From Azolla caroliniana (taxonomy: Eukaryota; Plantae; Polypodiophyta), in contig JBHGNT010000011.1 of the NCBI GenBank assembly GCA_043228905.1, positions 19,964,001 to 20,028,000 on the forward strand: a stretch of 64,000 nt of DNA, written 5' to 3'. Under the pieces are notes generated by a model. That model did no database searches. It was not told the origin of the DNA and was given only the letters and a program-made list of their open reading frames with translations. Shown piece after piece: positions 7,844 to 57,442 of the stretch (positions are counted from its first letter, which is position 1; each line of letters opens with the position of its first letter). Both the position numbers and the translations under genes were made by a program.

Positions 7844-7846
<3 letters not shown>

Positions 7847-7874
<28 letters not shown>
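7847..7874. repeat. (GA)n microsatellite
   Basis: Direct reading. Confidence 0.9.

Positions 7875-7879
<5 letters not shown>

Positions 7880-9290: not shown

Positions 9291-9291
<1 letters not shown>

Positions 9292-9357
<66 letters not shown>
9292..9357. repeat. Compound (AT)n(AG)n microsatellite
   Basis: Direct reading. Confidence 0.9.
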
Positions 9358-9361
<4 letters not shown>

Positions 9362-19884: not shown

Positions 19885-20383
19885 GATAGGTAGATAGATA
19901 GATTATATTATCGTCTTCGGAGGTCAAATATGACCTATGAGACCAAAAAATATTATATTTCACGTGATACGTGTGAAAGTGAGTAGTGACTCTCGATGTT
20001 CAAGAACTTTACCAATGAATGTTGCAATCGAGAGTGCACATTGTGGTTGTGAGAGGAATTCATGCAAAGATTGGGCTCGGTCGAAGAGATATGGAAAGCA
20101 TGGTCGAATATGATCAAAGGCAGAGCATTGTATCAAAGTGTGATACTCAGACTTGCGAACTTGTTTAGGGCAAAGTGTGCATAGCTGACCACTCTCATCA
20201 CTTGTGCCCCAACGCCCTGTTTCACATCGCAATGCATGTGAGCTAAGTCGCATGGAAGCAATGGTTCGAATGGCAGATAATGGTATGGGCTCTAACATGT
20301 ATCGATGTGTACGATTTCCCTGTTCTGCAAAGAATATGGTTTTGTAGTTAGGTGCAACATGTGTAGTATAATGTGTGAAGCGT
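19885..20383 (-). mobile_element. LINE fragment 3 of 3: ORF C-terminus with CCHC knuckle, 3'UTR and tail
   Basis: RLSSHALRCETGRW...CTLC...EYHTLIQC, stop at 19960, AGGTCA-TATT-TGACCT hairpin, (TCTA)n-like tail. The frame rejoins fragment 2 as KCGGSRFTHY once G1 is removed. Confidence 0.85.
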
Positions 20384-21848
20384 TGTCGCGAAGTTTCGCG
20401 CACGTGTGTTACTTGGGCGGGACCACGGGGGTCTTGGACTAGGGAGTACTCAAGGGATAGAGAAGACCCGAGGTTTGATTTACGACAATACTACTTCCCG
20501 ACCCCTTCCCGAGCAAGGTCTCGTTTCCCTTTATTTTGTGAGGCCGGTGGCTCTCGTTGATCACGACTCGTCGACCTTTCGAGATCACCGCACGAGCCAA
20601 GTGACCAAACGGGTACAAACAAGATGAGCACGCAACATGAACGCACAAGGGGACGATAACACAAACACGAATGTCCGTACGTCTTTATGACGAGGAGAGG
20701 TGCATGGGCATGTTCGAACGCTCCCTCGTCACAAGACGTCGAACGTACGAGGAAGACACAAAACACATGCACAAATGCTCGTACGCCTTTATGAGGAGGA
20801 GAGGTGCATGGGCAAGCCCGAACGCTCCCTCGTCACGAGACGACTGAACGTACAAGGAAGACACAAACACAAGCACAAAATGCTCGTACGCCTTTATGAG
20901 GAGGAGAGGTGCATGGGCAAGCCCGAAACGGTCCCTCGTCACGAGACAACCGAACGTACAAGGAAGACACAAACACACGCACAAAATGCTCGTACGTCTT
21001 TATGAGGAGGAGAGGTGCATGGGCACGCCCGAAACACCCCCTCGTCACAAGACGGTCGAACGTACAAGGAAGACACAAACACACACACAAATGCTCGTAC
21101 GCCTTTATGAGGAGGAGAGGTGCATGGGCAAGCCCGAACGGTCCCCTCATCACAAGACGACCGAACGTACAAGGAAGACACAAACACACACACAAATGCT
21201 CATATGCCTTTATGAGGAGGAGAGGTGCATGGGCAAGCCCGAACGGTCCCCTCGTCACAAGACGGCCGAACGTACAAGAAAGACACAAACACACGCACAA
21301 AATGCTCGTACGCCTTTATGAGGAGGAGAGGTGCATGGGCAAGCCCGAACGGTCCCCTCGTCACAAGACGACCGAACGTACAAGGAAGACATGAATAAAG
21401 AAAGAAGGAGAGAAAGAAACACAAATGATATCGACCAAAGAGATAAATACGTGTTCGATTCCAACGCAAGAGGACCCTTTATAAAATAGGGTTTTGTTTA
21501 CAATGGCAACTTATAGTTAACCACAAGCTCAATCAAAACATAAATATTAAATGCCCTTAGAGACAAAAGCAAATCCGAACACGGCGAAGATGAACACACG
21601 AGCACCACCAAAATGCCAATCCCAACGAACCACGACCACCCGAACGGCGAGCACATGGGCTCGCAACGACGAACGGGGCGGAGCAACGTCGAACCAACGA
21701 AGCTTGGGCTCACGAGCACTTCGAGTGCCGACACGAAGAAGACGAGCATGTGGCGATGGGGGGATGAAGGGGTATGAGATGAAGAGAAGTGGTGAATAAG
21801 GAGATGAAGAGCTTCGAAGGAAAATTGACGATAGTCTCCTCCTCCCTA
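20384..21848 (-). repeat. G1 3'LTR (U3 side deleted) containing 7 copies of a ~105-bp tandem unit
   Basis: Collinear with the 5'LTR up to AGTCTCCTCCTCCC. TTTATGA unit anchors at 20684, 20788, 20893, 20999, 21104, 21209 and 21315. Confidence 0.88.
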
Positions 21849-24587
21849 GGCAATAGGAAGCCATCCCCAACAATCTGGAGCTTCTGTCGCGTCTCGTCGG
21901 TGAACCGGTGCCCTATGCCTCGTGGGTCCCGCAAGCTAGGATCAACCGCTACCCCCTTTATCCAATCCCAACTATCGTTAGGCAATGGGGCAGCCACAGG
22001 CTTCACCTTCTTGTCCACGGTCTTGTACTTTGTTTGCACCTTGATCGTCCTTGCTTCCTCAATCAACCGCCCAAGCTCTTCGATGGCGGTGTACATGTCA
22101 ACTGAGTTGATTGGAATTACCTTGTTTTCATTGAGGCTCGAAACGACACTACCCTCTCCATCTCTCTGAGAGTGTCGTCGAATGAGACCGCCTCCATGGC
22201 GCCGCTTATGGTGTCATCTTCCCCCAATAAATTACATTGTTTGAGATACCTTTCGTATCTCTTGGCCCTAGACTTATCTCTATCACTTAAACTAGTAATT
22301 TTACAAGCTCCATTTTTGGAGAACGAAAATTGTTTCGTATTACATTTAATAGTTTTACAAGGGTTTAGGGTCTTAGTTTGCCTCGGGATATTGTGGCCCC
22401 ACTCTTTAATAGCCCGAATAAAAAATCCTCTTGGCTATCCTCTTGGCTATCCCCTTTGAGGGAGGCTCGATTGCGCTCATGGTTGGGCCTCACTATAAGG
22501 AATTGGACCGAATGCTTCCCATCTTGGCTCTTGACCCTCGCATATGCCGACCCGTTGTCCAGCACCTTCGTCTCCATGCGAGCCGCCGTGATGTATGGTT
22601 CACCCAAGATGACTGGGTGCGAGGACGTCTCTTGAACAAAGAAATGTTGATCTATTTCTACGTCCCCCACCTTCACACGTACATTCGGGCAAGCCCTGTA
22701 TAGCTCCTCGGTTGCTCAGGTCGCCGCTCTAATCTTCCACCCGTGCTTCATGTTGATCGACCACTTTCCCTTTTTATAAAAGTCCATGGACAAAAGGTTG
22801 ATCTCAGAGCCATGGTCGATCAATGCTACCACCGGCTCTTTTACATCTCCGACCCGTACCGGTGTCTCCGTTGTCGCTCTCACCCAATGCGGCCTCGTGT
22901 AGTGACTGTCCGCATAGTCTTTGTCTTCCTTGGGGACCTCAGTTGACAATGCATTTACAATCGCGGGTTTTGCCACTTCTTGCTCCGTTGAGAGCCGCTT
23001 CCTCTTCATTAGGTCAATGATGACCTCGTGGAATTCTTTCTTGGCAATTCCGAGGACCTCTCGCAGAGTAAACTCTACGCGACTATTGAGGATCCTCTCC
23101 TCCACTACCTTCTTCAAGTCCGTTGCTTGTTCGATCTCCGAGCAAAGCTTGAAGTTGGGGGGTTCCCCTTCTCTTTCCATCTTTCGTCGCGTGCTTGAGA
23201 TTGGTTCGGCTCTTCCCTTCTTCGTGCACCTCGAGCGTCGTATTTCCTTGATGGACCGGCTCCCTCGTCATTTCCTACCTTCTTCTCTTCTACCATTACT
23301 TCGTAGTTTTGGCAAGCGGGTTCCACTAAGCCTGTCTTTTCTTCCACCGGATCCATCCACCCGGTTGCTTCTTGAACCCTTCTTTCTGCTTCGTCCGCTT
23401 CTTCTCTTTTGAACTTCCCCTTAGAGAGGCTTCCAAGGATTGTCGGCTAAAAGTCAAACTCTTTCTCCTCTTGCCTCCTCACCTCTTTCCCCACTCGGAT
23501 CCCCGCTGACGCCGAGTAGTGGACGGCTTCAACATGTCGTGCTTCGGCCTCCTCCATTAGCCTTCTCATGCCCCCTCGGCCTTGATTCAATCCCAAGGGA
23601 TGCCTTGTCTCCGTCGAATAGACCCTATTGTTCCAAAGATAGACAATATCCTTTCTTAGGGCCTCTTGAAAGTCTCCACACTCCCTTCATAGGTGGTCGG
23701 GGTTGTCGCACCACATACATCTTTGCGCGAACGGGGGACGCCGATCTTGAGGGCCGCCACTCTCTCTCCTAGCTTGCGCTATTTGGAGATCTCGCACCAT
23801 CTTTGTGAGCTCGTCTATTGCCGACCCTCCCAACGGTGCTTCAACCACGTTTCTCTCGGGGATGAACCTTGCATTTACTTGCTCTCTTTCTTGAGGTATT
23901 CTACCACCCCTGGGTTCGTGTGTCTCACTAATGGAGCCTGTGGATGTTTGGCCGCTCAACGGAGACATGTCATTCCATTCCCTTCTCTTATCGAAGCGGC
24001 TACAAACCCGTTTTACCCTAGCCCAATCCGTCGTGAGCCCATCATCAGTTTCGAGGAGGGACCCCACCTTCTCTCGGTCTCGTGCATCAACAATCTTTAT
24101 GAATAGTAGGACCTTGCTTGTGTCAAGCACCATCCTATCGAGCGTCGAGCGTCAAGAGTTGTGCGAAGCGCTTCTCAAATTCTTGTAAAAGTACCATAGT
24201 ATTTCTCACCTTGCCGGGAAGCTCAACCCACTCCATTGGATCCCTTTTCGAAATTCTGAGTGAGTCATCAAGGCCGTACTTCTCAAGGAGTCTTTCTTTG
24301 AACTCCACCCAATTGCAACAGTCCGCTTGGATCTCGAGTACCTCCGTGTGGATACTCGGCGTTACCACTCTAGCGAATCCGGTTAGCTGCCTATCTTCGG
24401 GGACGTTTGGCATAAGCATTTCGGCCTTATAGGCATCCAAGTAGCTCGTGATATCTCTTCCATTGAACCGACCCATTGTGCTGACCACCGTCTCTATGGC
24501 CTGGTCTAGGCCGGTGATGCCTTCTCGGGCATTTACCAAGCGGTCCACCACCGCCGCCATCGCTTCAGCGAGTTCTCCTCCTCGCAT
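21849..24587 (-). pseudogene. G1 degenerate gag-PR and start of pol
   Basis: ORF pieces homologous to G3: CMWCDNPDHL knuckle, LIDHGSEIN protease, TKYKTVDKKVKPVAAPLP. Several stops and frameshifts. Confidence 0.88.
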
Positions 24588-24669
24588 CTTGGTTCTCCCT
24601 TGCTGCCCTTTCACGTCGAGTTCACCAATTTATGTCGTGACGTTTCGCGCACGTGTGTTACTTGGGCGG

Positions 24670-25539
24670 TGTCGTGCCTTTCGGCTCCGGATCGTTTGCG
24701 TGAGTCGGGTGGGAACCACCGGGGTTTTGGACTAGGAGGAGGAAGAATTTGAGGCTAATCTAGTTATGAATATGAATAGATTATAAGAAAGAGATATAGA
24801 AACTTGTGAATCCCACAAGTATAATTGTTTTAGTTTATCTAAATCGTAGTAATAAATTGAAATAATTTAGAATAGATTAGAGTAGATTGAGAAAAGAGAT
24901 CAAACCTTGTGAATCCCACAAGTATTACATTAATCAATATTTATGTAAGAATATGAATTTAGATTGAAAGAGATAGATTATCTTAAACTTCGTGAATCCC
25001 ACGAGTATATTTTATTGATTGTTGGTGTTTTAGGAAATATATCCAATTTCCCAAATATTTTTCACACACCTATTACATTGTGCTCCCCATCCTTATGTAG
25101 TGATGGGAGAGACTAAGCATAGCTACATGCTTTTTTTTCTAATATGTTCATGCACACTAAATGTGCATGTGATGCTTTTCTAATCCTTGCTTTTATTTGC
25201 TAAATATAGTGCTCATGCACGCTAGATGTGCATGAGTCACTTTTTAGTCGCTTGCGTTTTTCTATAAAATATTCACGCACTCTAAAAATACATGATTTAC
25301 CTTTTAATAAAGGTAGGCGCAAATAAAGCACTTATAGTTATTAAATCTATTTATAGAACACTAAAGATAAGGTAGCATAATGGTAAAGTTGAGGTTTGGC
25401 TACGTGGAGGTACAGGGTTCGAATCCTGCCATATGCACGTGATAAATATCTTGATATATTATTTTATTTATTTATATGTAATTAAATCGGTTATATTATT
25501 TTTTACTTTTTCACGTAGTGTACGAAATACACTACGACA
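24670..25539 (-). mobile_element. S1: solo LTR (870 bp) of the same Gypsy lineage
   Basis: TGTCGTG...TACGACA with perfect 4-bp TSD GCGG; the empty site is visible in the G1 3'LTR (CTTGG GCGG GACC). Related to the G2 LTR, which gives the orientation. Confidence 0.92.
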
Positions 25540-25971
25540 GCGGGACCACGGGGGTCTTGGACTAGGGAGTGCTCAAGGGATAGAGAAGACCCGAGGTTTG
25601 CTTTACGACAATACTACTTCCGAACCCCTTCCCGAGCAAGGTCTCTTTGCCCTTTGTTTCGTGAGGCCGGTGGCTCTCGTTGATCACGACTCGTCGACCT
25701 TTCGAGATCACCGCATGAGCCAAGTGACCAAACGGGTACAAGCAAGATGAGCATGCAACATGAATGCACAAGGGGACGATAACATAGACACGAATGTCCG
25801 TACGTCTTTATGAGGAGGAGAGGTGCATCGGCAGGCCCGAATGCTCCCTCGTCACAAGACGTCGAACGTACGAGGAAGACACAAAACACATGCACAAATG
25901 CTCGTACGCATTTATGGGGAGGATAGGTGCATGGGCACGCCCGAAACGCCCCCTCGTCACAAGACAACCGG

Positions 25972-27224
25972 TGTCGTGCCTTTCGGCTCCGGATCGTTGC
26001 GTGAGTCGGGTGGGAACCACAGAGGTCTTGGACTAGGAGAAAGAAGTTCGTGAGATAGAGATTAGTTATGAGTAAATAGCAAAGAGAAAGATAAGAAACT
26101 CGTGAATCACACGAGTATACTATATTAATTGGTACTTAGGGTGTTAAGAGAGAAGTAGATGTATAAATCGTGAATCCCACGAATAATTTTTGTATTGATT
26201 AATACTTAATCCAAATAATCAACAACCCTTTATATATTTCTCTCCTCCTTATATAAGGAAGGAAGAGCTAAGCATGGCTTCATGCTTTTACAAAAAGTGT
26301 TCATGTCCACTAAATGTGCATGTGATGCTTTTTTTTTATTTCCTAACGCTAGATGTGCATGAGTTATTTTTAGTGTCTCGTGTTTTTTCTTTTTCATATA
26401 TTAAAAAAATACACGATTTACCTTTTAATAAAGGTATGCATAAATAAAGGTCTTATACGTATTAAATCTATATTTAAAACACTTAAGATAAGTTAATGTA
26501 ATGGTAAGGTTGGGGTTTGTGTTCGAATCACGCCCTGCGCAGTAGTGAGTATTTCCTTTTTTTTTTTTTACATTTATGTCTCTTTATCCGGCTCTTCCTT
26601 GCCGGTATGCCGTTTTCTTCCTTGCCGGTATGCCGTTTTCCTCCTTGCCGGTATGCCGTTTTCTTCCGGTTCTCACCGAGCACTCCATTCTCTATCCGGA
26701 GGGACAAAAATATAATTTCCACATAGTGTGCAACCTACACTACGACACTCGCCCCCTCCAAACCCGCACATCCTCCGGTATGTGCCGAAGTTCTTGATTC
26801 TTCGTATCCGTCTTCATCCGAAGATTCCTCCGATTCTCCCCTTATGTCGACTATGAGTTGTAATCCACTTTCTTCGCTTCCCGCATCATTGTGGTCTTCG
26901 TCCGATTGCTCCTCGTTGTCGGCCTCGACTTGGATCACATAAGGTTTGTCGTCGATCCGCTTCTTGAAAATCTTCACCCGCTTCCCGGCTATAGGCACTC
27001 GTAGTATTGTTCCATCCAACTCGGACAGTCGGTACGTCCCGTTGTCGAAGACCTTCCGAACCTCGTACGGCCCGAACCACCTTTTCGTGAATTTCCGCAT
27101 CGTTGTATGCCGTTTTCCTCCTTGCCGGTATGCCGTTTTCTTCCGGTTCTCACCGAGCACTCCATTCTCTATCCGGAGGGACAAAAATATAATTTCCACA
27201 TAGTGTGCAACCTACACTACGACA
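25972..27224 (-). mobile_element. G2: Gypsy deletion derivative (full 3'LTR 25972-26747, PPT, integrase tail, first ~120 bp of 5'LTR)
   Basis: Perfect TSD CCGG, KFTKRWFGPY (GPY/F) integrase tail, PPT AGGGGGCGAG next to the LTR, duplicated LTR end at 27104-27224. Confidence 0.9.
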
Positions 27225-28721
27225 CCGGACGTACAAGGAAGACACAAACACACGCACAAAATGCTCGTATGCCTTTATGAGGAGGAGAGGTGCATGGGCA
27301 AGCCCGAAACGGTCCCTCGTCACAAGACGGCCGAACGTACAAGGAAGACACAAACACACACAGAATTGATCGTACGTCTTTATGAGGAGGAGAGGTGCAT
27401 GGACACGCCCGAAATGCTCCCTCGTCACAAGACTGCCGAATGTACAAGGAAGACACAAACACACACACAAATGCTCGTACGCCTTTATGAGGAGGAGAGG
27501 TGCATGGGCAAGCCCGAATGGTCCCCTCGTCACAAGACGGCCGAACGTACAAGAAAGACACAAACACACGCACAAATGCTCGTACGCCTTTATGAGGAGG
27601 AGAGGTGCATGGGCAAGCCTGAACGGTCCCCTCGTCACAAGACGGCTGAACGTACACGGAAGACACAAACACACACACAAATGCTCGTACGCTTTTATGA
27701 GGAGGAGAGGTGCATGGGCAAGCCCGAACGGTCCCCTCGTCACAAGACGACCGAACGTACACGGAAGACACAAACACATGCACAAATGCTTGTACATCTT
27801 TATGAGGAGGAGAGGTGCATGGGCACGCCCGAAACGCTCCCTCGTCACAAGACTACCGAACGTACAAGGAAGACACGAATAAAGAAAGAAGGAGAGAAAG
27901 AAACACGAATGATATCAACCAAAGAGATAAAATAGGGTTTTGTTTACAATGACAACTTATAGTTAACTACAAGCTCAATCAAAACATAAATATTAAATGC
28001 CCTTAGAGACAAAAGCAAATCTGAACACGACGAAGATGAACACATGAGCACCACCAAAATGCCAATCCCAACGAACCACGACCACTCGAACGGCGAGCAC
28101 ACGGGCTCGCAACGACGAACGGGGCGGAGCAACATCGAACCAACGAAGCTTCGGTTGACGAGCACTTCGAGTGCCGACGTGAAGAAGATGAGCATGTGGC
28201 GATGGGGGGATGAAGGGGTATGAGATGAAGAGAAGTGGTGAATAAGAAGATGAAGAGCTTTGAAGGAAAATTGGCGATAGTCTCCTCCTCCCAAAATGTC
28301 CTCCCGAATGAGCCCCCTCGACCTCCTTTTATAGGAAAAAGAAGAAGGGGGGGTTGCCAAATTTGTCTTCAATGAAAAAGGAATAAAATTCCTTAAATCA
28401 CGCTGCACTGTAAGTCCAAATTCAAACCGTGCACCTCTAGCTAGTAGTCAATGTGACTATCCACTAGCCCACTAATTCTCTCTTAAATAATATATAATTC
28501 TATCTCTATAAATTTATAGCTTGTCTCCCCTCTACCTTTTATCTTTGCTCTCTCTTACTTTTTGCATGAGCTTCTATACCTCCTTTTCACCCTTTCTTTT
28601 CCTTTTTATTTTGCATATGCACAATTATTCGTTTTTGTGTGCACACACATTGCACATGCACATTTTTGACCCCCCCCCTTTCACCAGTTTTTCCCACTCT
28701 CGAGCACACCACATCACGACA

Positions 28722-30901: not shown

Positions 30902-31510
30902 TGTTGGAATTGCGGTCCCTTCGGATGGGATGGTCGGATGTCGGAGATGAATGCCGACAAGCCCGGTTTCGGTTTCGGAACCGGATGATGAAGACCCCGA
31001 CTTCGGAGCCGGATGACGAATGTACCCGGAGAGCGATCCGAATACAGGGACATATCCGTGAATATGTCTGCTATGGGCCCCTGAGGCTATAGTTGTAAAT
31101 AGCCCCAAAGTCATATATGTATAAATATGACTTAGGGCAAACAGTTTTACTGTTGCTACCCATTTTTCTGTTTTTCCACTCAAGAGGAGTGAAGAGGGAG
31201 CAGCCGTGAGAGAGAGAGAGAGATAGAGCGCGAGAGAGGAAGAGGTAGACGCCTCTGTGTATTTCCGCCGCCTGTGGCGAGGACAGCGAGCTCTAGGTCG
31301 TTGCCTTGCAGCTCGCCATTGTATATTTCTCTGTGCATAGTTTGGTTTGGAGTCTCGCACTCCCGTGGTTTTTCCCGTATAGGGTTTTCCACGTTAATCC
31401 CTGTGTATCGTGTCTTTCTCTGTATTTCCTATTTTCTGCTGCATTGATCCGTGATTACTCGGTTGTGGCCGAGGGAAGAAGGTGAATCGAAGCGTTGATT
31501 CCCAACAAAC

Positions 31511-31522
31511 TGGTATCAGAGC
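31511..31522 (+). promoter_or_regulatory. C1 primer-binding site for initiator tRNA-Met
   Basis: TGGTATCAGAGC, 3 nt after the 5'LTR. Confidence 0.92.
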
Positions 31523-31536
31523 GACTGTTGCAGAAA

Positions 31537-35610: not shown

Positions 35611-36226
35611 AGGGGGAGTTTGTTGGGATTGCGGTCCCTTCGGATGGGATGGTCGGATGTCGGAGATGAATGCCGACAAGCCCGGTTTCGGTTTCGGAAC
35701 CGGATGATGAAGACCCCGACTTCGGAGCCGGATGACGAATGTACCCGGAGAGCGATCCGAATACAGGGACATATCCGTGAATATGTCTGCTATGGGCCCC
35801 TGAGGCTATAGTTGTAAATAGCCCCAAAGTCATATATGTATAAATATGACTTAGGGCAAACAGTTTTACTGTTGCTACCCATTTTTCTGTTTTTCCACTC
35901 AAGAGGAGTGAAGAGGGAGCAGCCGTGAGAGAGAGAGAGAGATAGAGCGCGAGAGAGGAAGAGGTAGACGCCTCTGTGTATTTCCGCCGCCTGTGGCGAG
36001 GACAGCGAGCTCTAGGTCGTTGCCTTGCAGCTCGCCATTGTATATTTCTCTGTGCATAGTTTGGTTTGGAGTCTCACACTCCCGTGGTTTTTCCCGTATA
36101 GGGTTTTCCACGTTAATCCCTGTGTATCGTGTCTTTCTCTGTATTTCCTATTTTCTGCTGCATTGATCCGTGATTACTCGGTTGTGGCCGAGGGAAGAAG
36201 GTGAATCGAAGCGTTGATTCCCAACA

Positions 36227-36818: not shown

Positions 36819-37211
36819 TGTTATTCCTTAGGGCCGGACAATGGCCTAACACACGGTGTCTACGGAAGACACTTCACCAAAGGGTGTTACGGCGAGATAA
36901 CTTAAGACACAACGATTAATTAGACTTAATTGGTTACTTAGCAATATGGCATTAGATTTGATACACGCGTATGATAGAACAATTAGTACAAAACGGTAAT
37001 CAATACTTAAAGATAAAACAAGAAGCTCTATTAATTATCCGTCAAAGTTTTACATTGTAACCGGGCCTTTATATAGGTCACCGATGCTGAGTACAGAACG
37101 ATGCCAACTGGCACCTGTTCGGAATTGGTCTGGATCTGAATCGGCATACCGATTCCGGTCCGTCCGTTCACGTCCCATAAACTACTTAATTATAATCTAT
37201 TCCGAATAACC
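36819..37211 (-). repeat. A1 3'LTR (~390 bp)
   Basis: TGTTATTC...GAATAAC(C) terminal inverted repeat (last base mutated), abutting a PPT and interrupting the LINE endonuclease. Confidence 0.75.
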
Positions 37212-37312
37212 CATCCCTTTCACATTCTGGTCTTTAACTCCTTTGCCGGTCGGGTAACACATGGCACGCTCGTGGGACAATACCTTGTACGTCGAATCCC
37301 ACCATCTGGCCC

Positions 37313-42579: not shown

Positions 42580-43449
42580 TGTCGAGATATTACGCAAGTG
42601 CGTGTGGAATAGAGGCGGGACCGCGGGGGTCTCGAACCAAAGAGCAAGCGAGGGAGGAGAAAGAGAGAGAACCGGCTACGCAGGACCGGGGATACACAGG
42701 GACACGGCCCTTCAGCACGGAGAACGCGAACAGACACCGACACAGACGGATGCGAATGACTAAATATGTGTATTAACAAAATGGCTAACACGACTACAAC
42801 CCCCGATGGGGCACAGGTTGGTTGCAACCGAACAGGCCGGCGAACAGATGCCGATGCCTGTTCGCTTCGACGCACAAACGGGGAAATGGGGGGGGGTAGC
42901 AGGTCGGAGGTGCTGCCGGAAGCACTCGGGCGTTCCTCGAAACAGCGCGAGCCTCCCCGGAACCCTGCACAGAAAGCTTTGGAGCTCAAGAAGGAAGGAA
43001 ACAGAGAGAGCGAAGCGTCCAGAAACGGTCCGACAGCACTTCGTCCTCTCCGCGCCAGATCCCTGCAACAGCTCTTTCCCGCTCCTTATATAGGCCGACG
43101 AACAGGCCGTCGTGTCAGCTTTATTCCTTGTCCCTTTTGGACAGGGATCCGCTCCGTTTTTCACGGATCCGCGTAGTTACGCCGCCGACTCGTACAGTTC
43201 GCGCGCGCGACCGAAAAGACTGTTCGCGCGGTCTTTGTCTCCACTTGAGTTAGGGCCCGTTCCTGCCGATTATCCTCTCAATTCGTTTCTATGTACAACT
43301 CGGAGCGTGCGCGCGTGAAGAACCGGTTCCCACGCCTTGGTGCGCCGATTCCGCCTATGGACGGTTTTCTTCACGACATCCGCCCCCACCTAACCGCGCA
43401 TCCTCCGGTATGCGCCAAGAGAGTTGGGACGGAGAAAACCGGCCCGTCT

Positions 43450-46400: not shown

Positions 46401-46941
46401 CTCGGAGCGTCTCGTCAGTGAAGGTGTGCCCTATGCAGGCCGGATCTCGTAGACTAGGGTCTGATGCAACCCCTTTGATTCTCGACGCGCTGTCCTCCGG
46501 TAAGGGTGCCGCTACTGGCCTTACCTTCCGGTCCACAGTCTTGTACTTGGTGTTTACGTGGGCCGTCCGAACTGACTCGAGCCCTCGACCGAAGTCCGCG
46601 ATGACTTCGTACATCTCCTCGGAACACACCGGTATCGTCCGGTCGTCGTTAAGGCCTTCTTCGACTACCTTTCCCAGCATTCCCAAGGTGTCGTCGAATG
46701 AGACCGCCTCCACGGCTCCGTTGATTTCCTCGTCCGGGCCGAGAACTCCGCACGCTCGAAGTCTCGCCTCCGTCTTTGTTTTCTCTCGGCCGGCGATGCC
46801 GACCATCGCACACGCTCCGTTGTCGGAGAACAAAAATTCCCTACCTATGGTACAAGGTTTCTTCGGTTTTATCGTACAGGTGTGGGGTTTTCCCGGGGTG
46901 TCCGGACTGTCGCGGCCCCACGCCTTGGCAGCCCTCTCTAA
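43450..46941 (-). CDS. G3 pol ORF (RT-RNase H-integrase), probably reached by -1 frameshift from gag-PR
   Basis: Open from just after TAA 46956-46954 to the stop at 43450. DLYSGY, LPQG, PFLDDI, TVDTS, ETDC, H-H-C-C, VADRG and GPY motifs; no chromodomain. Confidence 0.93.
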   Translation of the reverse strand, partial: LERAAKAWGRDSPDTPGKPHTCTIKPKKPCTIGREFLFSDNGACAMVGIAGREKTKTEARLRACGVLGPDEEINGAVEAVSFDDTLGMLGKVVEEGLNDDRTIPVCSEEMYEVIADFGRGLESVRTAHVNTKYKTVDRKVRPVAAPLPEDSASRIKGVASDPSLRDPACIGHTFTDETLRELKIGGGGFLLPAEEDRFRRMLGRHGKAFAFSPEEIGCVDPTIVEPMVIFTVPHVPWNLKPIPVPRAHIPKLMELLRQKVDMGILEPSSAPYSNRWFTVPKKNGSLRFIQDLQPVNRVTIRNAGIGPTIDEFAEAFAGRSIYSVGDLYSGYDQFQLAVESRDLTTMRTPLGLVRMCTLPQGGTNSVAHMVNAMNKVLRDCVPDITMPFLDDIPIKGCPVEEKDETIGPDGCRRFVATHVDDCEKVLQRLEDARLTFSGEKSAFGQSEIMVVGHLCGPYGRKPSPAKVEAISAMKPDCSSVTEVRRFLGACAFYHIWIPHYAHVAEPLYGLLKKGRRFEWLDKHAESVRKLKEALAAAPALRKAVYGKGTPVFITVDTSPTGIGWVVNQEDEDGNRFPIRFGAKVLSERQRGYAQVKRELWGIVSAVKADKDYLIGTEVIIETDCLPILGMVSGCATPDLAMLRWIAYIKSLDPEIRHISGKDNAMADMLSRARFDDEGGMVSEDEEVGVDFFEAAYITTDGMSTPALNEFDASKYDGEWLQIGGFLKTMTPDASWTKDEANRIRKKAYRFFLRDGHLWKHPKKRDGVPLRVVAMKEEQEELLTAYHDSPWAGHRGTWATFEKLKGKYWWPGQYRDVHRFVTTCGSCQMHSIVRHRDELHPTYPPTIHFKWMVDLVTMPMGVGQMRYLVLAREDLTNQVEGRALPNKTTAAVCRFLIEDVICRYGCVGKIVADRGELDAEEAAELFDRLGVQLSLTTAYNPEANGKVERGHGPIVKALVRACGGRAGDWPRLLPYALWADRTTHSSVTGYMPTELMFGQTPIMPIERTISSWATVDWRDEMSREELLVARIRQLERRPEDVALATEKLRVARTKNKARFDRTHRLRPKKIEEGDWVLVYDSSLDNQHRATRKFARRWFGPYVVRSANDNGTYHLAELDGTRMAIPVAGKRIKAFKKRHDDEPDPALLVGSDERSKNEEEPTGEE

Positions 46942-46947
46942 AAATCC
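46882..46947 (-). promoter_or_regulatory. Putative -1 programmed ribosomal frameshift signal (G_GAU_UUU, 6-nt spacer, stem/pseudoknot)
   Basis: Heptamer 46947-46941, stem GGGCUG/CAGUCC, loop GUGGGG complementary to CCCCAC at 46887-46882. Same architecture in G1 and G5. Confidence 0.8.
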
Positions 46948-49064
46948 TCTCGGTTATCGGAACCGAGGGAGTCGCGGTTACGCTCGTGGTTCGGCCTAAC
47001 CGTAAAAAACTGGACCGAATGGCGGCCGTCCTGGCTCTTGACCCGCGCATAGGCCGAACCATTGTCCAGCACCTTGGTCTCCATTCGCGCCGCCGTGATG
47101 TACGGCTCTCCCAGTATGACCGGATGCGAAGACGTCTCCTGCACGAAGAAGTGCTGGTCAATCTCGACGTCGCCGATCTTGACTCGCACATTCGGACAGG
47201 CCCCGTGCAGTTCCTCGGTGGCGCGCGTTGCTGCCCTTATTTTCCACCCGTGCTTGGTGTTGATCGGCCATTTGCCCTTCTTATAGAAGTCCATGGACAT
47301 CAAATTGATCTCCGATCCGTGGTCCACCAAAGCTATCACCGGTTCCTGGACATCGCCGATCTTCACCGGGGTTTCCGTGGTCGCTCGGGCCCAGTGCGGT
47401 CTCGAATAGTGGCTTTCCGCCCACTCGTCTCCCAGCGCCATGTCGTCTAGGTGCGTCGTCCGCACTTCCACCGGTCTTTCCGGTTCTGTCTCCGTTGACA
47501 GCCTCTTCCGTTTCACCAAGTCCACGATGGAGTCGTGGAACTCCTTCTTGGCGATTCCAAGCACCTCCCGTAGCGACAGCTCCACCTTGCTGTCGAGGAT
47601 CCGTTCCTCCAGGACCTTTCGTAAGTCCGTGGTTCTTTCTATCTCCGTCCCCAGACGGTACCCGCCCTTCTGGGGTTTATCTTGCGTACCGGCCCTGCCG
47701 GCTTCGTCCCGTCGTGGCCCGGACCGGGTCTCGTATCGTTGTGAGGGCCCGGTCGTCCCGGGTTTTCCCACCCGCTTCTCTTCTACCAGAGCCTCGTAGT
47801 TCCGGCAAGCGGCTTCCACGAAGCCCGTCCTTTCCTCGACCGGGTCGCTCCACCCGGTCATCTCCCGTACCCGTTTCTCCGCACGGTCCGATTCCTCCCT
47901 TTTAAGCCCTGCACCGGCAAGGCCTTCCAGCATCGTCGGCCAGAATCCGGCTTTGCTTTCCTTTCGGGCCTCGCCGCCCCCGACTCGAATGCCGGCCGAC
48001 GCCGAGTAGTGGACGGTTTCCGCGTGTCGGGCCGCCGCCTCTTCCATCAACCTTTTCATACCACCCTTTCCGTCGTTTCGGCTCAGGGCCCTTCGGGTGT
48101 CGCTGGCATGCACCCGTCCTTCCCACAGGTACACCACCCGGTCCCTCAGCGCCTCCGCGAAGTCGCCGCAGTCCTTCCGAACGTGGCCGACTTCATCGCA
48201 CCACATGCACCTGTTTCCTGCCGCCGGCCGTCGGTCACGAGCCGGTTCGCCTCCTTCCCTTCGGGCCTGCGCGATTTGGAGGTCCTTTATCGCCTTCGTC
48301 AATTCCTCCAGCGCCGCTCCTCCGGTTGAGCCTCTGACTACGCCGGTCGAAGCCGAACCGGTTTCCAACCACTCCCGGGTCTCTTCCTTGCGCACCTGTG
48401 GCGCTGGTTCGAGCTTCCTTGCTGCGACCGAGCCCGACCCAGTCGCCCCGTTATCCGCCCATTCTCGCCGTTTGTCGAAACGGCCACAGACCTTCCTGAC
48501 AGCCGCCCAGTCGGTAGTGAGCCCGTCTTCGGTTTCCAGCAAGAGGCCCACTTGCTCCCGATCCCGCTCGTCGACCGACTTGACAAACAGCAAGACCCGG
48601 CTCGTGTCCAGGATGGTTCGGTCGAGCGCCGAAAGGCGCGCAAAGTTTTCCTCGAACTCCCGGAGGAGTGCCGACGCGTTTCTTCCCTTCCCCGGGGACT
48701 CCACCCATTCCATGAACCTTCGCTTCGAAAGCCGGAGCGCGTCGTCCAGCCCGTATTTCTCTAGGAGCCGACCTTCGAACTCCTCCCAGGTACGGCTCTC
48801 CGCCCGCACCTCGAGCACCTCCGCATGGATGCTCGGCATTGCCACTCGGGGAAAACCGGCAAGACGCCTTTCTTCCGGAATGTCCCGCATCAACATTTCT
48901 GCACCGTAGGACGCCAGATACTTCGTGGCATCCCTCCCATCGAACCGGCCGATCGTGCCGACGACCGCCTCAATAGCTCTGTCGAGGGCACCGGTACCCT
49001 CGCGCGCGTTTACGATCCGATCCACGGCCGAAGCCATGGCCTCTGCGAGATCCGACCCCCTCAT
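46938..49064 (-). CDS. G3 Gag-protease ORF
   Basis: First ATG ~23 nt after the PBS, CMWCDEVGHVRKDC knuckle, LVDHGSEIN...ILGEPY aspartic protease, ends REDF*. Confidence 0.93.
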   Translation of the reverse strand: MRGSDLAEAMASAVDRIVNAREGTGALDRAIEAVVGTIGRFDGRDATKYLASYGAEMLMRDIPEERRLAGFPRVAMPSIHAEVLEVRAESRTWEEFEGRLLEKYGLDDALRLSKRRFMEWVESPGKGRNASALLREFEENFARLSALDRTILDTSRVLLFVKSVDERDREQVGLLLETEDGLTTDWAAVRKVCGRFDKRREWADNGATGSGSVAARKLEPAPQVRKEETREWLETGSASTGVVRGSTGGAALEELTKAIKDLQIAQARREGGEPARDRRPAAGNRCMWCDEVGHVRKDCGDFAEALRDRVVYLWEGRVHASDTRRALSRNDGKGGMKRLMEEAAARHAETVHYSASAGIRVGGGEARKESKAGFWPTMLEGLAGAGLKREESDRAEKRVREMTGWSDPVEERTGFVEAACRNYEALVEEKRVGKPGTTGPSQRYETRSGPRRDEAGRAGTQDKPQKGGYRLGTEIERTTDLRKVLEERILDSKVELSLREVLGIAKKEFHDSIVDLVKRKRLSTETEPERPVEVRTTHLDDMALGDEWAESHYSRPHWARATTETPVKIGDVQEPVIALVDHGSEINLMSMDFYKKGKWPINTKHGWKIRAATRATEELHGACPNVRVKIGDVEIDQHFFVQETSSHPVILGEPYITAARMETKVLDNGSAYARVKSQDGRHSVQFFTVRPNHERNRDSLGSDNREDF

Positions 49065-49086
49065 CTTCTGCTCTTCTGCCGCCTCT

Positions 49087-49104
49087 TTCACGTCGGGTTC
49101 ACCA
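49087..49104 (-). promoter_or_regulatory. G3 primer-binding site complementary to tRNA-Trp(CCA) 3' end
   Basis: TGGTGAACCCGACGTGAA matches the plant tRNA-Trp 3' end TTCACGTCGGGTTCA-CCA (recalled sequence). Same PBS at 24611-24627, 53954-53971 and 63047-63064. Confidence 0.85.
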
Positions 49105-49907
49105 AAGATGTCGAGATATTACGCAAGTGCGTGTGGAATAGAGGCGGGACCGCGGGGGTCTCGAACCAAAGAGCAAGCGAGGGAGGAGAAAGAGAGAGAA
49201 CCGGCTACGCAGGACCGGGGATACACAGGGACACGGCCCTTCAGCACGGAGAACGCGAACAGACACCGACACAGACGGATGCGAATGACTAAATATGTGT
49301 ATTAACAAAATGGCTAACACGACTACAACCCCCGATGGGGCACAGGTTGGTTGCAACCGAACAGGCCGGCGAACAGATGCCGATGCCTGTTCGCTTCGAC
49401 GCACAAACGGGGAAATGGGGGGGGGTAGCAGGTCGGAGGTGCTGCCGGAAGCACTCGGGCGTTCCTCGAAACAGCGCGAGCCTCCCCGGAACCCTGCACA
49501 GAAAGCTTTGGAGCTCAAGAAGGAAGGAAACAGAGAGAGCGAAGCGTCCAGAAACGGTCCGACAGCACTTCGTCCTCTCCGCGCCAGATCCCTGCAACAG
49601 CTCTTTCCCGCTCCTTATATAGGCCGACGAACAGGCCGTCGTGTCAGCTTTATTCCCTGTCCCTTTTGGACAAGGATCCGCTCCGTTTTTCACGGATCCG
49701 CGTAGTTACGCCGCCGACTCGTACAGTTCGCGCGCGCGACCGAAAAGACTGTTCGCGCGGTCTTTGTCTCCACTTGAGTTAGGGCCCGTTCCTGCCGATT
49801 ATCCTCTCAATTCGTTTCTATGTACAACTCGGAGCGTGCGCGCGTGAAGAACCGGTTCCCACGCCTTGGTGCGCCGATTCCGCCTATGGACGGTTTTCTT
49901 CACGACA

Positions 49908-51315: not shown

Positions 51316-51375
51316 TGTCGCGTTGTTACACGCGTGCGCGTAGAAGGGCGGGACCACGGGGGTCTTGGATCGAGG

Positions 51376-51412
<37 letters not shown>

Positions 51413-52064
51413 TTCACAGACACGCAGAAGCGAGAAGGAGAGATATAGAACGGAACACTCGATTACAATAACAAGAGATTACAATAACACTTGATTACAA
51501 TAACTCCGACGGTTACAACCGGCAAGGCGGCGACGGACCCGACACGGGGACCCTACCCACGCACACAGACGGAACACACTGGACCCAGAGAAACGCAGAA
51601 GGAAAAGCCTATGCTGGCAGCGCACGGGCTACCCACGAAGCAGAGGCGTCGAACTCCCCTGTACCCACAGAGAATGACGGTCGAAGTAGGAGAGAGAGTT
51701 CGGCTCTCGGTCTTGCAGCACTTTGTCCTCCTTAACGCGCGATCCCTGTTCCTTCCTTCTCTCCCTCCTTAAATAGTTCCCCAAAAGGGGGTGCCCCTTT
51801 TTCCTTAGCCAAACTGCTTTATTCCCTGTCCCTGTCACACAAAATCCCCTAATAAATGTACACTACCTAGTATTTACACCAGTCGCCCTAATTACGAATT
51901 ATGTACAATATATCACTCCTTGCGTCCACCCGTGTAAGAGCCGGTTCATGCACCTTTTTCTTCGATTCTGCCTATGGCCGGTTTCCTTCACGACATCCAC
52001 CCCCACCAAACCGCGCATCCATCGGCATGCGCCAGAGACGGGTAGACACCGAAGAAAACCGGCT

Positions 52065-52874
52065 TCACTCGTCGTTCTCCGATTCTCCGCCGAACCCGAA
52101 CTGATCGTCGTTGTTACTCTTGCTCGCCGGCTCCGGCTCGTCTTCGAACCGCTTCTTGAACTCTTTGATCCACTTCTCGGCCACCGGCACAGCTAACCGT
52201 GTACCATCGAGTGCCGCGAGGTGGTACGTGCCGTTGTTGTTCGCACTCGTCACCATGTAGGGCCCGAACCACCTCCTAGCGAACTTTCGCACCGCCTTGT
52301 GCTGATTGTCGAGGCTGCTATCGTACACCAAGACCCAATCGCCTTCCTCGATCTTCTTTGGTCGCAACCGGTGCGTCTGGTTGAACCGGGTCTTGTTCTG
52401 CTCCCTTGCGGCCCGCAGCCTTTCCTTCGCCCGTTTCATGTCCTCCGGCCTCCGCTCGAGTTGCCGAATCCGCGCCGCCAGCAACTCCTCCCGGCTCATT
52501 TCGTCCTTCCAATCTACCGCCACCCATGAAGAAACCGTCCGTTCCACCGGCATGATCGGCTTATGTCCGTACATCAACTCTGCCGGCATAAACCCTGTTA
52601 CCGAACTGTGCGTAGTTCGGTCCGCCCATAGTGCGTAAGGGAGGAGCCGCGGCCAATTCCCGACCTGCCCTCCGCATGCACGCACCAACGCCTTTACGAT
52701 CGGCCCGTGCCCACGTTCTACCTTCCCGTTCGCCTCCGGATTGTACACCGTAGTGAGGGAGAGTTTAATGCCTAGCCGGTCGAACAACTCCTCAGCTTCC
52801 CGCGCATCCAGCTCTTCCCGGTCTGCCACGATCCTCCCGACGCACCCGTACCGACACACTACCTCTTCGATCAA
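52065..52874 (-). pseudogene. G4 truncated integrase (core second half plus GPY/F)
   Basis: CRYGCVGRIVADRE, YNPEANGKVERGH, RRWFGPY; homologous to the G3 integrase. Confidence 0.88.
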
Positions 52875-53324
52875 GAACCCTAGGTCTCACCCGGTTCGTT
52901 ACCCTAGGTCTCACGCGGGCACTCGGCCCGGCCGCCGGGGTCTCTTGAACCGGTGCGTGTAAGGTAGCAATGCCGCCGCTCGTCGATGCTATGCCCGTAG
53001 CCACCTCCATTCGGACATCGTCGTCCGTGGCTACCCCGCCTCCGTATATGCAAGCATCAATTATGCTTGCCGCCTCCTCTTCCACGGTCTCCATACCGTT
53101 GTCTCGGTTGCCCGCCTTGCCGCCGCCACCGCCCGTCGCTCTAGGTCTCACGCCGGCAATCGGGCCGACCGCCGGTGCCTCTAGGGCCGGTGTGTGTAAG
53201 GTCGCGGCATCGCCGCTTGTCTCCTCCTCACTCGATGTTTCGGGCCTCCATGCCTGAACTCCCTCATGTCACCGTCCCCGACCTCGTCCTCGGTCGATCT
53301 TTCTCCGTATGTCGAGAGGGTGGC

Positions 53325-53931
53325 TCACTCCGCACCCTCTCCCGTGGTACCGATGTACCATTCTCTCTCGGCCTCCTCATCCTCCGATCCGCTCGGGCCC
53401 GACTCCGCAATAAGCCCTTCTTTGGCTTCGATTTGTGCCTCTACGATCTCGTACGCTTCCCGCACCAAGGCTTCGATGTCGAGCTCCTCCGAACCTATTT
53501 GCGTTGAGCTCTCTTCCGACGGTAGTGCATAGTCGGTCACCGCTCTCTCTTCTACGCCGCTCGCGGGCCACCTTGTGGCCGACCGCCTCTCATCGCATTG
53601 TATGCACGCCCATTCCACCTCGTTCCAATCTTTAGTGAGGCCGTACGCCCCTTCATCGTCTTCGAGGTAGGGAAAAATGGCCATTCTCCCCCTTTCGTTG
53701 ACCGACTTCAAGAATAGTGGGACCTTGTCCGCCCCCATCGATTCTTGATCCCGGACTGAAAGTTGGGAAAACCGGAGATCGAACTCCCGGAATGCCTTCA
53801 TTGCGCTTCGAGGAGCCTTTGCCGACGACACCCATAGATCGAACTCACGTCGATCGTACTTGTATGCCTCTTCCTGTCGCGTAATCCCTTGCCATTCTCG
53901 TAATTACTTCTGCGATGTCTCCGTCTTCCAT
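53325..53931 (-). pseudogene. G4 shortened, frameshifted gag
   Basis: REFDLWVSS...FREFDLRFSQLS...LFLKSVNER aligns by eye to G3 gag. Confidence 0.7.
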
Positions 53932-55078
53932 CTCCTTCCTCCCTTGGCGCCTCTTCACGTCGGGTTCACCAAATATGTCGCGTTGCTACACGCGTGCGTG
54001 GAGAAGGGCGGGACCACGGGGGTCTTGGACTAAGGAGTAGAGGAGAAGGAATCGGACATGGAATGGAAGCTTTGCTCAAGAAGAAGAAGAATGAACAAGA
54101 GATTAGATCGAACAAGAGGAAGATGGAGACAAGATTATCAACAAGATATATTTAAAATGAAATGAACGATTACAAAATGGTGGCCGCACCAAACGACTAC
54201 TCGAAACCCTAACCGACAAAGATGAAGATAAAGATAAAGATAAAGAAACCCTAACCCTAACCCTAACACTCGACCTATGTGGTATACCTCACACACTCCA
54301 AATAGGCAACCCTCACAATGGTGCCTTCCCTCTCCTTTTATAGCACAAGGAGGGAAGACCGTTTACAAAAGTGAGACTAAAATGTCCCCTTTCATTCAAA
54401 GGGGATATTTGCCTTGATTTGGGGAGGGTGAGATTGATGGCCCCTTAACTCCCACCTCCACACAAACAACTAGGTACCTATGTACCGCATAGTACCTCTC
54501 TCTCTCTCTCTCGCGTGGATGTGCGCACAAGACCACATCACCTTTATACCTTAGGGATCCTATGGGGCATTTCTAGCACCATACACTTTACCCTTATTAC
54601 TATTACAAATACATTATGTACGTGTGCAACGTTGCACATCACTCTTTGGCTCTTGTTGCTAGGGTTTCCGCTTGTGGACGAAAATCTTCACGACAACGGG
54701 CTACCCACGAAGCAGAGGCGTCGAACTCCCCCGTACCCACAGAGAATGACGGTCGGAGCAGGAGAGAGAGTTCAGCTCTCGGTCCTGCAACACTTCGTCC
54801 TCCTTAACGTGCGATCCCTGTTCCTTCCTTCTCTCCCTTCTTACATAGTTCCCCAAAAGGGGGTGCCCCTTTTTCCTTAGCCAAACTACTTTATTCCCTG
54901 TCCCTATTGACAAAGATATGCACAAAATCCCCTAATAAATGTGCACTACCTAGTATTTACACCAGTCGCCCTAATTACGAATTATGTACAATATATCAAT
55001 CCTCGCGTCCACCCGTGTAAGAGCCGGTTCATGCGCCTTTTTCTTCGATTCCGCCTATGGCCGGTTTTCTTCACGACA

Positions 55079-57442
55079 ACGTATTAATCAAGTCGGCCAT
55101 ACTGAGCTTGTGTCTGCCATCTAAAGCCAAAACGGGCAGGGTTCCCAGTCATGGATTCCTAGAGTGTTACACGTTCGGAGGCTGATCATGTTCATGCCGG
55201 ATCCTCCATCAATAATCGTGCCGAGTAGCTCTTTTCCTTTCACGATGACTGTGATTGCCAGACTGGTCGTGTCTACCACTGTCGGTCCTTCCTCCGGATT
55301 TGAAAAGAATGCGGGAGCCACTGGCGTGTCGGCTGCCGTCCTTCCTATCTTCAATCCTTACGCGAAGCGTGGTACCATTTGCAATAGCCGGCCTAACGGC
55401 AACATTATTTGGCATTCTTGTAACGCTTGCCATGTTGGGTTTTCGGGCTGCCCTATGCCGGTAAGTTCTTCAACATTCTCCTTTTGTTGTTTGAGCTCTG
55501 CCACCTTTCGCTCGTTTGCCTTCTTTACCCATTCGGTTGCCTGCTTCCGGATGGCTTCTTGAGTTTCCCACTCCGTGGCTTTGCCTTTTAATCTTGTAGT
55601 GACTTGTTTACCATGTGTACCGCTGGTCGCTTGTCGTAGCTCTTCGTTGGACATTGGTTACTATAGTGGCCTTCTTGCCGGCAATAATAGCAGTACGCCT
55701 TCTGGGTGTTGCTGGATTCAGCGTTTGTGCCTGCACCCGGTTGAGGTCCTATGGTAAGTGCTTGGTTTTGGTCCAGTTGGCTGCTTGGAGCGCCCTTTTC
55801 CAGTTCCCGTGGATGACCCCCCTTTTTGTTGAAATGTCGTTTCTTGTTGAAATTCTTTTTGTGTTGGTAACCTTGACGGGGATGGTCGTCCTACTTGCCA
55901 TAGTCGTCCCGTCGTTGGTTGTAACCAGGGGAGTGATCCCGGTTGTATCCCTCGCACCGTCCATTATAGTCTCGGTATCTATCTTGTCTGTCATACCGGT
56001 CATAAGCGTCTCTTCGATCGTTGTACCGGACATCTTGTGCCGGCCGGTATCGCTCCTCTCGCCACCAACGTTCTTCTTCTTCCTCCCAGTTGCTTCGTGG
56101 TTCAATTTGCCAGACCGGTGGTGCTTGCCGATTTAACAAGTTATACTCACACCGTTCCATTGTGTGACTTTTGGAGTGGCAGAGCAAGCATTGGGAATGC
56201 ATGGTGCATTCCAGCGCCGAATGTCTAGCATTCAGGCATGTCGTACATTGAATTGCTTGCCGGAAACGAAGGTCCTCATCTGTCGGTAGTGCACGATGAA
56301 GTGCGCCCATGGTTAGCCATGAACTTGAGTTTTCCATTTCCCGCACTCGGTCGATTACTTGATCTATGTTGTTGGTGCGGAAATCAATGACGATGCACAC
56401 AGTTCGTAAGGGTTCCCGGAGTGCTGCTAAGAATATGGCCTTTATTTCTTCCTCCGGTGGTGTTTGGCTGAGCTAACTGTGGATCCGCTGGAACCGGATG
56501 ACAAACTGTTGAATGTTCTCCGTTGGTTCCTGCTGGATACTGTAAGTTAAGCCTACCATTTCCCGTTGGTCCATCTCCTTGTGAAAGAAATGCAAGAATT
56601 TTGTTTTTAATGTTTCAAACGTGGGGATGGTGCTGGGATCTTGTGTTCGGTGCCATCTGGCGGCCGGTTCCTCTAGGGTCATGCCGAACTTTGCCCTTTT
56701 TGAGCGTTCCTCTTTGGCCGCATTTAAGCGTTGGGACACATGGTTTGCCTCCCACGTTTGCTGAAACGCATGGACGTGAGCTTCCGCGTTCGGATCATCC
56801 CGGTATCTGGGATATTGGATCGACATATCGTCGTCTGGTGTCGGTACGCGGGTTGGTGGTGTCAGTGGTCTTTCCTCCTCCTCTGTCGGCGTCAGAGGTC
56901 TTTCCCAGTCTTCTATCGCCGTCAGAGGTCTTTCCTGCTCCTCTTTCGGTGTCAGAGGCTTTTCCTCGACTTCCGGTGTCGGAGGTATCTCGTCCTCGAC
57001 TTCTGGTTCCGGAGTGTGCTCGACTTCTGGTGCTGGAGGTTCCAGCGTTGTCAATTCTGGTTCTGGTGTCGGCAAGGTATCCAACTCCTCGTCCTCCGGT
57101 CCGTCTGGGGTGTCATTACTGTTGTGGTAGTTCGTCTGCGCAATGTATTCCCCGTCCGAACCCGATTCAAAAGCTGAAAATGCTTTGGATTCGCCCTTGG
57201 CCTGCTGCCAATGCCTAGAGAAGGGAATCCGCTTCCCGGAGGCTACTTAGGCTGCTTCCTTCGTCTAGGTAGTCGTTTTGTTGTAAACGAAGTGACTCCT
57301 TGGCAACTCTCCGGATCACTTTGGAAAATGAGAGATCCGCTCTGATTTCTTCTACCGCTTGCTGGAAAGCCTCTCGCTTCCTCATCCGTTCAGCAAGTCT
57401 CCTTGGTCGTTCCGTAACCGGGTCGTTCGTTGGTCGCGTCAT
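55079..57442 (-). pseudogene. A1 gag and protease N-half
   Basis: Retrotrans_gag-like AHVHAFQQTW...AARWH, two zinc knuckles (CTTC..H...C, CLLC..H...C), IIDGGSG protease; multiple stops and frameshifts. Confidence 0.85.

What the first reader, a model, noticed from the sequence alone, without database searches (positions are those of the whole stretch)
20380..55082. Gypsy lineage inserts with 4-bp TSDs always centred on CpG, without a chromodomain
Seen: all five complete insertions have 4-bp TSDs of form [G/C]CG[G/T]: G1 GCGT/ACGT, S1 GCGG, G2 CCGG, G3 CCGG and G4 GCGT/ACGT. Three restore host reading frames and S1 matches a visible empty site. G2 hit a repeat unit reading CCGG where neighbouring units mostly read CCGA. 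The Copia and S2 have ordinary 5-bp TSDs. The G3 integrase ends after GPY/F in a short acidic tail. Established: plant LTR elements typically make 5-bp TSDs with weak sequence preference. Inference: the integrase recognises (possibly methylated) CpG, steering insertions into other TEs.
Basis: partly seen in the sequence, partly recalled or inferred. Interest (0 to 1): 0.8.

Follow-up and report, generated by a model that had tools for sequence, protein, structure and literature searches.

The report
Moss-type retrotransposon that inserts at CG
These nested jumping genes all landed in the middle of a CG pair and duplicated four bases, a habit already published for the moss "Phygy" group that they likely belong to; their enzyme likely reads the CG sequence itself, and nothing here shows that it needs the CG to be methylated.

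Summary
All five insertions have 4-bp target duplications centred on CG (three perfect, two 3/4); a sixth half-site fits. Local chance is about 4e-7. Outside the window, 16 of 19 LTR flanks in related contigs are CG-centred against a 3% background, and LTR-end flanks read ACGT by majority in 4 of 4 sequencing runs. Neumann et al. 2019 (PMC6317226) report this for the Physcomitrella Phygy clade: 4-bp NCGN duplications (100% of 186), tRNA-Trp primer site, no chromodomain. The window elements share these traits, and named relatives are liverwort and fern proteins; placement with Phygy reference sequences could not be tested. Added here: the target is V-CG-B (21 of 22), a special case of the VYRB rule of 4-bp retroviral integrases, and V-CG-B density alone (19-55 per kb in LTR elements, 5-7 elsewhere) would favour nesting. 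Most likely mechanism: the integrase kinks a central pyrimidine-purine step and reads CG directly (inferred). Reading of methyl-CG is untested, about 15%.

The parts
20384..28721 (-). G1: internally deleted Phygy-like element inserted in a LINE ORF; 3' LTR 20384-~21846 (inner end lost), gag and start of pol 21836-24629, 5' LTR 24633-28721 with ~105-bp tandem repeats; TSD GCGT (20380-20383) / ACGT (28722-28725)
24670..25539 (-). S1: solo LTR of the same lineage inside the G1 5' LTR; TSD GCGG/GCGG
   Evidence: empty site GCGG at 20417-20420 in the sister LTR
25972..27224 (-). G2: deleted element (3' LTR 25972-26747, PPT, integrase C-terminus, last 120 bp of 5' LTR) inside a tandem-repeat unit of the G1 5' LTR; TSD CCGG/CCGG
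42580..49907 (-). G3: intact 7,328-bp element; LTRs 42580-43378 and 49109-49907 (2 differences in 799 bp); TSD CCGG/CCGG in the RT-RNase H region of a host Gypsy
46938..49118 (-). G3 ORF1: Gag (DUF4100 match) plus aspartyl-protease-like region, 726 aa stop to stop
43450..46953 (-). G3 ORF2: RT-RNase H-integrase, 1167 aa stop to stop, overlapping ORF1 in another frame; integrase has H2C2, DDE core, GPY/SH3-like domain, acidic tail, no chromodomain
49087..49104 (-). G3 primer-binding site, read as complementary to the 3' end of tRNA-Trp (tRNA identity recalled, not tested); same motif at G1, X and G5
51316..55078 (-). G4: deleted composite element in the host Gypsy protease region; 3' LTR 51316-51995, integrase 3' half 52101-52877, distal 5' LTR 54696-55078; TSD GCGT (51312-51315) / ACGT (55079-55082)
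53976..54695 (-). X: 5' LTR (with PBS and gag remnant to its left) of a sixth element of the lineage, inserted in the G4 5' LTR; one-sided target ACGG at 54696-54699
   Evidence: sister LTR reads ACGG at 51624-51627
57655..64000 (-). G5: older, broken element of the same lineage; its outer ends were not resolved, so no TSD
30902..36226 (+). Control: intact Copia, 5-bp TSD CATAG/CATAG, in the same LINE
36857..37259 (.).

Best explanation
These are non-chromoviral Ty3/gypsy retrotransposons, likely of the moss Phygy clade, whose insertions duplicate a 4-bp V-CG-B target, likely because the integrase kinks the target at a central pyrimidine-purine step and reads CG directly, likely without needing methylation. 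Shown: 4-bp stagger, central CG, avoidance of T at the first and A at the last position, no chromodomain. Established for 4-bp retroviral integrases: the central YR step is unstacked and the edges follow VYRB. Inferred: narrowing YR to CG needs base-specific contacts; candidates are the core-domain loop DRG[E/D]L (where PFV carries Ala188) and the conserved C-terminal loop L[E/D]xQHSTxRKF. Nesting in other LTR elements would follow passively because they hold 3-10 times more V-CG-B sites per kb.
For: Five of five TSDs plus one half-site CG-centred, P about 4e-7. 16 of 19 outside LTR flanks CG-centred, background 0.032, P 1e-21; one exception (CCTT) sits where 25 of 33 homologous empty sites read CCGT. 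Majority flank ACGT in 4 of 4 runs, 14-35 contigs each. 21 of 22 CG sites are V-CG-B, expected fraction 0.48-0.49, P about 4e-6. PFV consensus VYRB, T/A disfavoured at TSD edges, local preference largely independent of chromatin (PMC4422553). Nearest solved integrases are PFV and Ty3. Phygy: 4-bp NCGN, tRNA-Trp, no extra domain. CG-centred targets exist in Drosophila ZAM-group elements (CGCG) and Ginger1 (CCGG/CCGT); that Drosophila has almost no CpG methylation is recalled. Acidic residue in the loop in 96 of 99 integrases. V-CG-B density 18.6-54.9 per kb in LTR elements versus 5.2-7.0 in the LINE and the first 19.8 kb.
Against: No Phygy reference sequence was available, so clade membership rests on structural traits; G3 (7,328 bp) is just below the published Phygy range of 7,656-9,968. 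All six window sites lie in TE DNA that is presumably methylated, so methylation dependence is not excluded. The Ala188-equivalent contacts bases outside the TSD in PFV, the alignment there has a one-residue gap, and an acidic residue is also common in distant relatives (44 of 132 under 45% identity carry E), so the candidate residues are weak leads. Two of 19 outside flanks (CCAT, TCCA) stay non-CG. The outside loci seem to come from one series of assemblies, and two of three two-ended loci have non-matching flanks (collapsed repeats).
Confidence: 0.7

Rival explanations
1. The integrase prefers or requires methylated CG (symmetric mCpG at the kink), using DNA methylation instead of a chromodomain to home in on heterochromatin.
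For: All 6 window sites are in TEs; 11 of 19 outside flanks have some TE match. In bryophytes CG methylation is mainly on TEs and low in gene bodies (PMC10952607 passages). Phygy domains are reported enriched at centromeres of a liverwort (PMC12885004). The LINE target shows CpG depletion (o/e 0.34-0.77), a sign of past methylation.
Against: No methyl-binding or chromodomain match in 17 proteins scanned or in the model. Target density explains nesting without it. The loci were selected for holding pol, which inflates self-nesting. CG-centred targets occur in insect elements. A search for all five of LTR retrotransposon, integration, methylated CpG, target site duplication, preferentially insert found 0 papers.
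Confidence: 0.15
2. Two layers: CG is read as plain sequence, while a host factor bound by the acidic integrase tail or by Gag tethers the complex to heterochromatin.
For: An acidic tail follows the GPY domain throughout the lineage; reported centromere enrichment; Phygy nested in Tcn1 was the commonest recurrent nested pair in P. patens (PMC6911290).
Against: The tail is not conserved in sequence or length and is predicted disordered; no regional bias beyond target density was measured.
Confidence: 0.12
3. Chance or GC background, or DNA bendability alone.
For: Young elements are GC-rich with CpG o/e near 1; CG is a flexible YR step.
Against: P about 4e-7 in the window and 1e-21 outside; 11 of 12 CpG-poor flanks still carry the CG. 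No TA-centred site among 25 sites and half-sites, and one CA, although these steps are also YR.
Confidence: 0.02

Closest known systems
Phygy clade, non-chromovirus Ty3/gypsy of Physcomitrium patens (Neumann et al. 2019, PMC6317226; passages, section 9, supplements 5 and 6 read)
   Same: 4-bp NCGN TSD, tRNA-Trp-type PBS, no chromodomain, no aRH or extra ORF, coding region filling the internal part.
   Different: Another host (LTRs and species differ; host not determined); G3 is 7.3 kb, below the published range; the refinement to V-CG-B and the many subfamilies are not in the passages read.
Prototype foamy virus and other 4-bp-TSD retroviral integrases (Serrao et al. 2015, PMC4422553; passages read)
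   Same: 4-bp stagger, central YR step, VYRB edges; nearest solved structures.
   Different: Their preference is weak and admits TA and CA/TG; here the centre is nearly always CG.
Ginger1 DNA transposons (Bao et al. 2010, PMC2836005; passages read)
   Same: Gypsy-type integrase with GPY/F, TGT ends, 4-bp TSD CCGG (75%) or CCGT/ACGG (24%).
   Different: DNA transposons of animals with TIRs and no RT; narrower target.
Drosophila ZAM-subgroup errantiviruses (Nefedova and Kim 2017, PMC5408687; passages read)
   Same: Gypsy-group elements with a CG-centred palindromic target (CGCG).
   Different: AGT ends, no GPY/F motif, env gene, insect hosts.

Membership tests
Phygy | Clusters with P. patens Phygy RT-RH-INT sequences | not testable with these tools
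   REXdb element table and FASTA were too large to read; no protein named P. patens among hits listed. Integrase tree of 40 rows puts G3 and G4 with Riccia elements (98/94), Chara and a fungal protein outside.
Phygy | 4-bp TSD with NCGN motif | tested here: met
Phygy | PBS complementary to tRNA-Trp | tested here: inconclusive
   One conserved PBS motif in 4 window elements and in related loci; its match to tRNA-Trp is recalled, no tRNA gene was found to compare.
Phygy | No chromodomain, no aRH, no extra ORF; coding region spans nearly the whole internal part | tested here: met
   ORFs 43450-49118 against internal part 43379-49108
Phygy | Element size 7,656-9,968 bp (authors call size of little weight for classification) | tested here: inconclusive
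   G3 is 7,328 bp, 328 bp under the range of another species
Chromovirus (Tcn1, Galadriel etc.) | Chromodomain at the integrase C-terminus | tested here: not met
Tat (incl. TatI: 4-bp TSD, tRNA-Trp) | Additional archaeal-type RNase H domain | tested here: not met
   Single RNase H between RT and integrase, pol 1167 aa; judged from Pfam layout, no aRH profile on hand
Selgy | tRNA-Ala PBS, 4.4-6.7 kb, 4-bp TSD without motif | tested here: not met
   Motif present and size 7.3 kb
Fungal Ylt1-like clade | RT/integrase clustering with Ylt1 | not tested
   No Ylt1 sequence on hand; one named fungal protein at 38% integrase identity; passages of PMC2864245 and PMC5014426 gave no Ylt1 target motif

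The most novel reading that the evidence does not exclude
A chromodomain-free Gypsy lineage, spread over mosses, liverworts and ferns with relatives in Chara and fungi, whose integrase reads methylated CG at the kink of the target and so uses DNA methylation itself as a heterochromatin address.
Probability: 0.13. Interest if true: 0.75.

Novelty: new member of a known kind. Interest (0 to 1): 0.24.

Why it matters
As it stands it extends a published one-line observation (Phygy, NCGN) to another genome and many subfamilies, sharpens the motif to V-CG-B, and ties it to the known geometry of 4-bp integrases. G3 is intact and very young, so it is a ready source of integrase for asking how a Gypsy integrase gains near-absolute dinucleotide specificity. 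If the enzyme preferred methyl-CG, it would be a new route to heterochromatin targeting; this was not shown.

Tried and rejected
No whole genome is held, so a genome-wide TSD logo could not be built. Viral contigs gave no relative. First read-laying on the whole LTR hid the junction rows among 350 unshown rows. The protein Atlas gave only generic RT clusters for a Riccia homologue. No tRNA or Rfam hit in the window. No host gene identified in 57 of 78 short ORFs of the first 19.8 kb; two sub-threshold Pfam hits only. A blind scan for further TSD-flanked TG...CA inserts gave only chance-looking pairs. Empty-site look-ups for L054, L025 and L067 were uninformative. Extended target preference outside the TSD: only a weak T two bases outside (14 of 30). 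The whole-word search 'NCGN' returned no transposon paper among the 20 of 93 listed. PMC7466625 passages do not link RLG2/RLG3 to Phygy or to a target motif; GingerRoot has a 6-bp TSD without motif. Three rows were dropped as matches inside LTRs (L018 7502, L020 6403, L026 534); keeping them gives 17 of 22. Two rows seen only by the looser scan (L011 ACGT, L038 ATGT) were not counted.
Full report
Observation. The window has an AT-rich first third (GC 0.32-0.41, CpG o/e 0.18-0.58) and a nest of retroelements from 19.8 kb on. Self-comparison, ORFs and Pfam resolve a LINE, a Copia, a host Gypsy, and a second Gypsy lineage with TGTCG...CGACA ends. The 4-bp length is fixed independently: translating each flank on its own, the host frames are in phase when one 4-bp copy is discounted for G1, G3 and G4, and one 5-bp copy for the Copia; the S1 empty site is visible in the sister LTR. 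Only G3 is intact (LTRs differ at 2 of 799 positions); G1 and G4 have LTRs about 5-6% apart, which fits their imperfect TSDs. Both mismatches are the same change, a C to T on the element strand at a base that the junction with the LTR's TG puts in a CHG context; methyl-C deamination is my inference, and S1 has the same context unchanged.

More than chance. The product of local CG-centred 4-mer frequencies is 4.4e-7. To enlarge n, 73 related loci were fetched, LTR termini were called from similarity to PPT- and PBS-anchored termini without looking at the flank, and 22 flank-type rows outside the window were found; 3 were dropped as matches inside LTRs, leaving 19 half-sites in 16 loci. 16 of 19 are CG-centred against 3.2% in their own flanks (P 1e-21; 3e-13 at 11%). 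One exception, CCTT, lies where 25 of 33 homologous copies read CCGT. 12 of the 19 flanks are CpG-poor (under 0.035 per base) and 11 of these still carry the CG. In public contigs of four runs (three studies, three organism labels; one may be the window's own source), LTR ends that do not run on into the PPT have majority flank ACGT in each run, from 29, 28, 35 and 14 contigs; per-position frequencies are not given and 102 rows were not shown. Among the 22 CG-centred sites, 21 avoid T at the first and A at the last position, where about half would by chance (P about 4e-6). This V-CG-B rule, not the CG, is what G2's choice of CCGG among CCGA, TCGA and CTGA units fits.

What it is. G3 has Gag (DUF4100) plus protease in ORF1, RT-RNase H-integrase in an overlapping ORF2, a conserved PBS, and no chromodomain. 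Named relatives are Riccia proteins (up to about 64% over most of pol), Adiantum and Calypogeia fragments, then Chara (43-44% in integrase) and a fungus (38%); the tree groups G3 and G4 with the Riccia elements. The host is therefore probably a moss or another non-seed plant; it was not determined. Neumann et al. 2019 state that Phygy elements prefer NCGN, the one exception among plant lineages, and list 186 elements with 4-bp TSD in 100%, tRNA-Trp PBS in 81% and no extra domain (PMC6317226). Jedlicka et al. 2019 also report mostly 4-bp TSDs for Phygy and GC-rich centres in 4-bp TSDs (PMC6911290 passages). The element table and protein FASTA of Neumann et al. could not be read; they would settle membership and may already show the V-CG-B edges.

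How it likely works. Shown: 4-bp stagger and V-CG-B target. Established: integrases with a 4-bp stagger unstack a central YR step, PFV's consensus is VYRB, T and A are disfavoured at the TSD edges, and local preference is largely independent of chromatin (PMC4422553). The G3 integrase is closest to PFV and Ty3 among solved structures; its model (pLDDT 82) shows H2C2, core and SH3-like domains and a disordered tail. Inferred: bendability explains the edges and YR but not the exclusion of TA and CA/TG, so base-specific contacts to the central CG are needed. Two lineage-conserved loops are candidates: DRG[E/D]L after the second catalytic Asp (acidic residue in 96 of 99) and L[E/D]xQHSTxRKF before GPY. 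They are weak leads. V-CG-B sites are 3-10 times denser in LTR elements than in the LINE or the first 19.8 kb, so nesting would follow without any chromatin reader.

Methylation. No methylation data could be examined. For: all window targets are in TEs and bryophyte CG methylation is concentrated on TEs. Against: no reader domain, a sufficient passive explanation, and CG-centred targets in Drosophila ZAM-group elements and Ginger1 transposons. A 1992 paper on CpG methylation and retroviral integration in vitro was seen only as a title in a reference list. An earlier unchecked note of this scan describes NCGN TSDs in a fungal genome (e1-10582392); it led me to Ginger1 and hints that the habit may be older than land plants, which I did not test.

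Verdict. Real and well supported, but a published property of a known kind of element; small additions are the V-CG-B refinement, a further host and an intact young copy. Interest 0.24.

Noticed in passing
window 47200-47330 (G3 ORF1), 22800-22830 (G1), 60690-60720 (G5): The protease active-site motif reads D-H-G-S in G3 and G1 (N-H-G-S in broken G5) rather than the usual D-[S/T]-G (usual form recalled); it seems a lineage trait.
   Followed up: no
window 20638-21391 and 25762-27890: The G1 LTR carries an internal array of ~105-bp tandem repeats, with different unit numbers in the two LTRs.
   Followed up: partly
window 37313-39673: The host Gypsy has a long degenerate coding-like region downstream of its integrase, rich in predicted charged residues, with no Pfam match; may be an Athila/Tat-type extra ORF.
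   Followed up: no
window 31486-35610: Intact single-ORF Copia (1374 aa) with LTRs differing at 2 of 606 positions, i.e. as young as G3.
   Followed up: partly
window 30902-57400: Young LTR elements show no CpG depletion (o/e 0.86-1.2) while the LINE and the first 19.8 kb do (0.34-0.77).
   Followed up: partly
window 62330-62561: A 39-40-bp tandem repeat interrupts the gag of G5; a similar short repeat lies in the G2 LTR near 26590-26670. It may be a piece of a related LTR.
   Followed up: no
L011:1-12351: Tandem arrangement of elements sharing LTRs (PPT-LTR-PBS at 187-978 and 6664-7496), or a collapsed assembly.
   Followed up: no
window 11214-11441 (-): Sub-threshold PPR repeat match (E 0.003) in the AT-rich left part; possibly a decayed gene fragment.
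   Followed up: no
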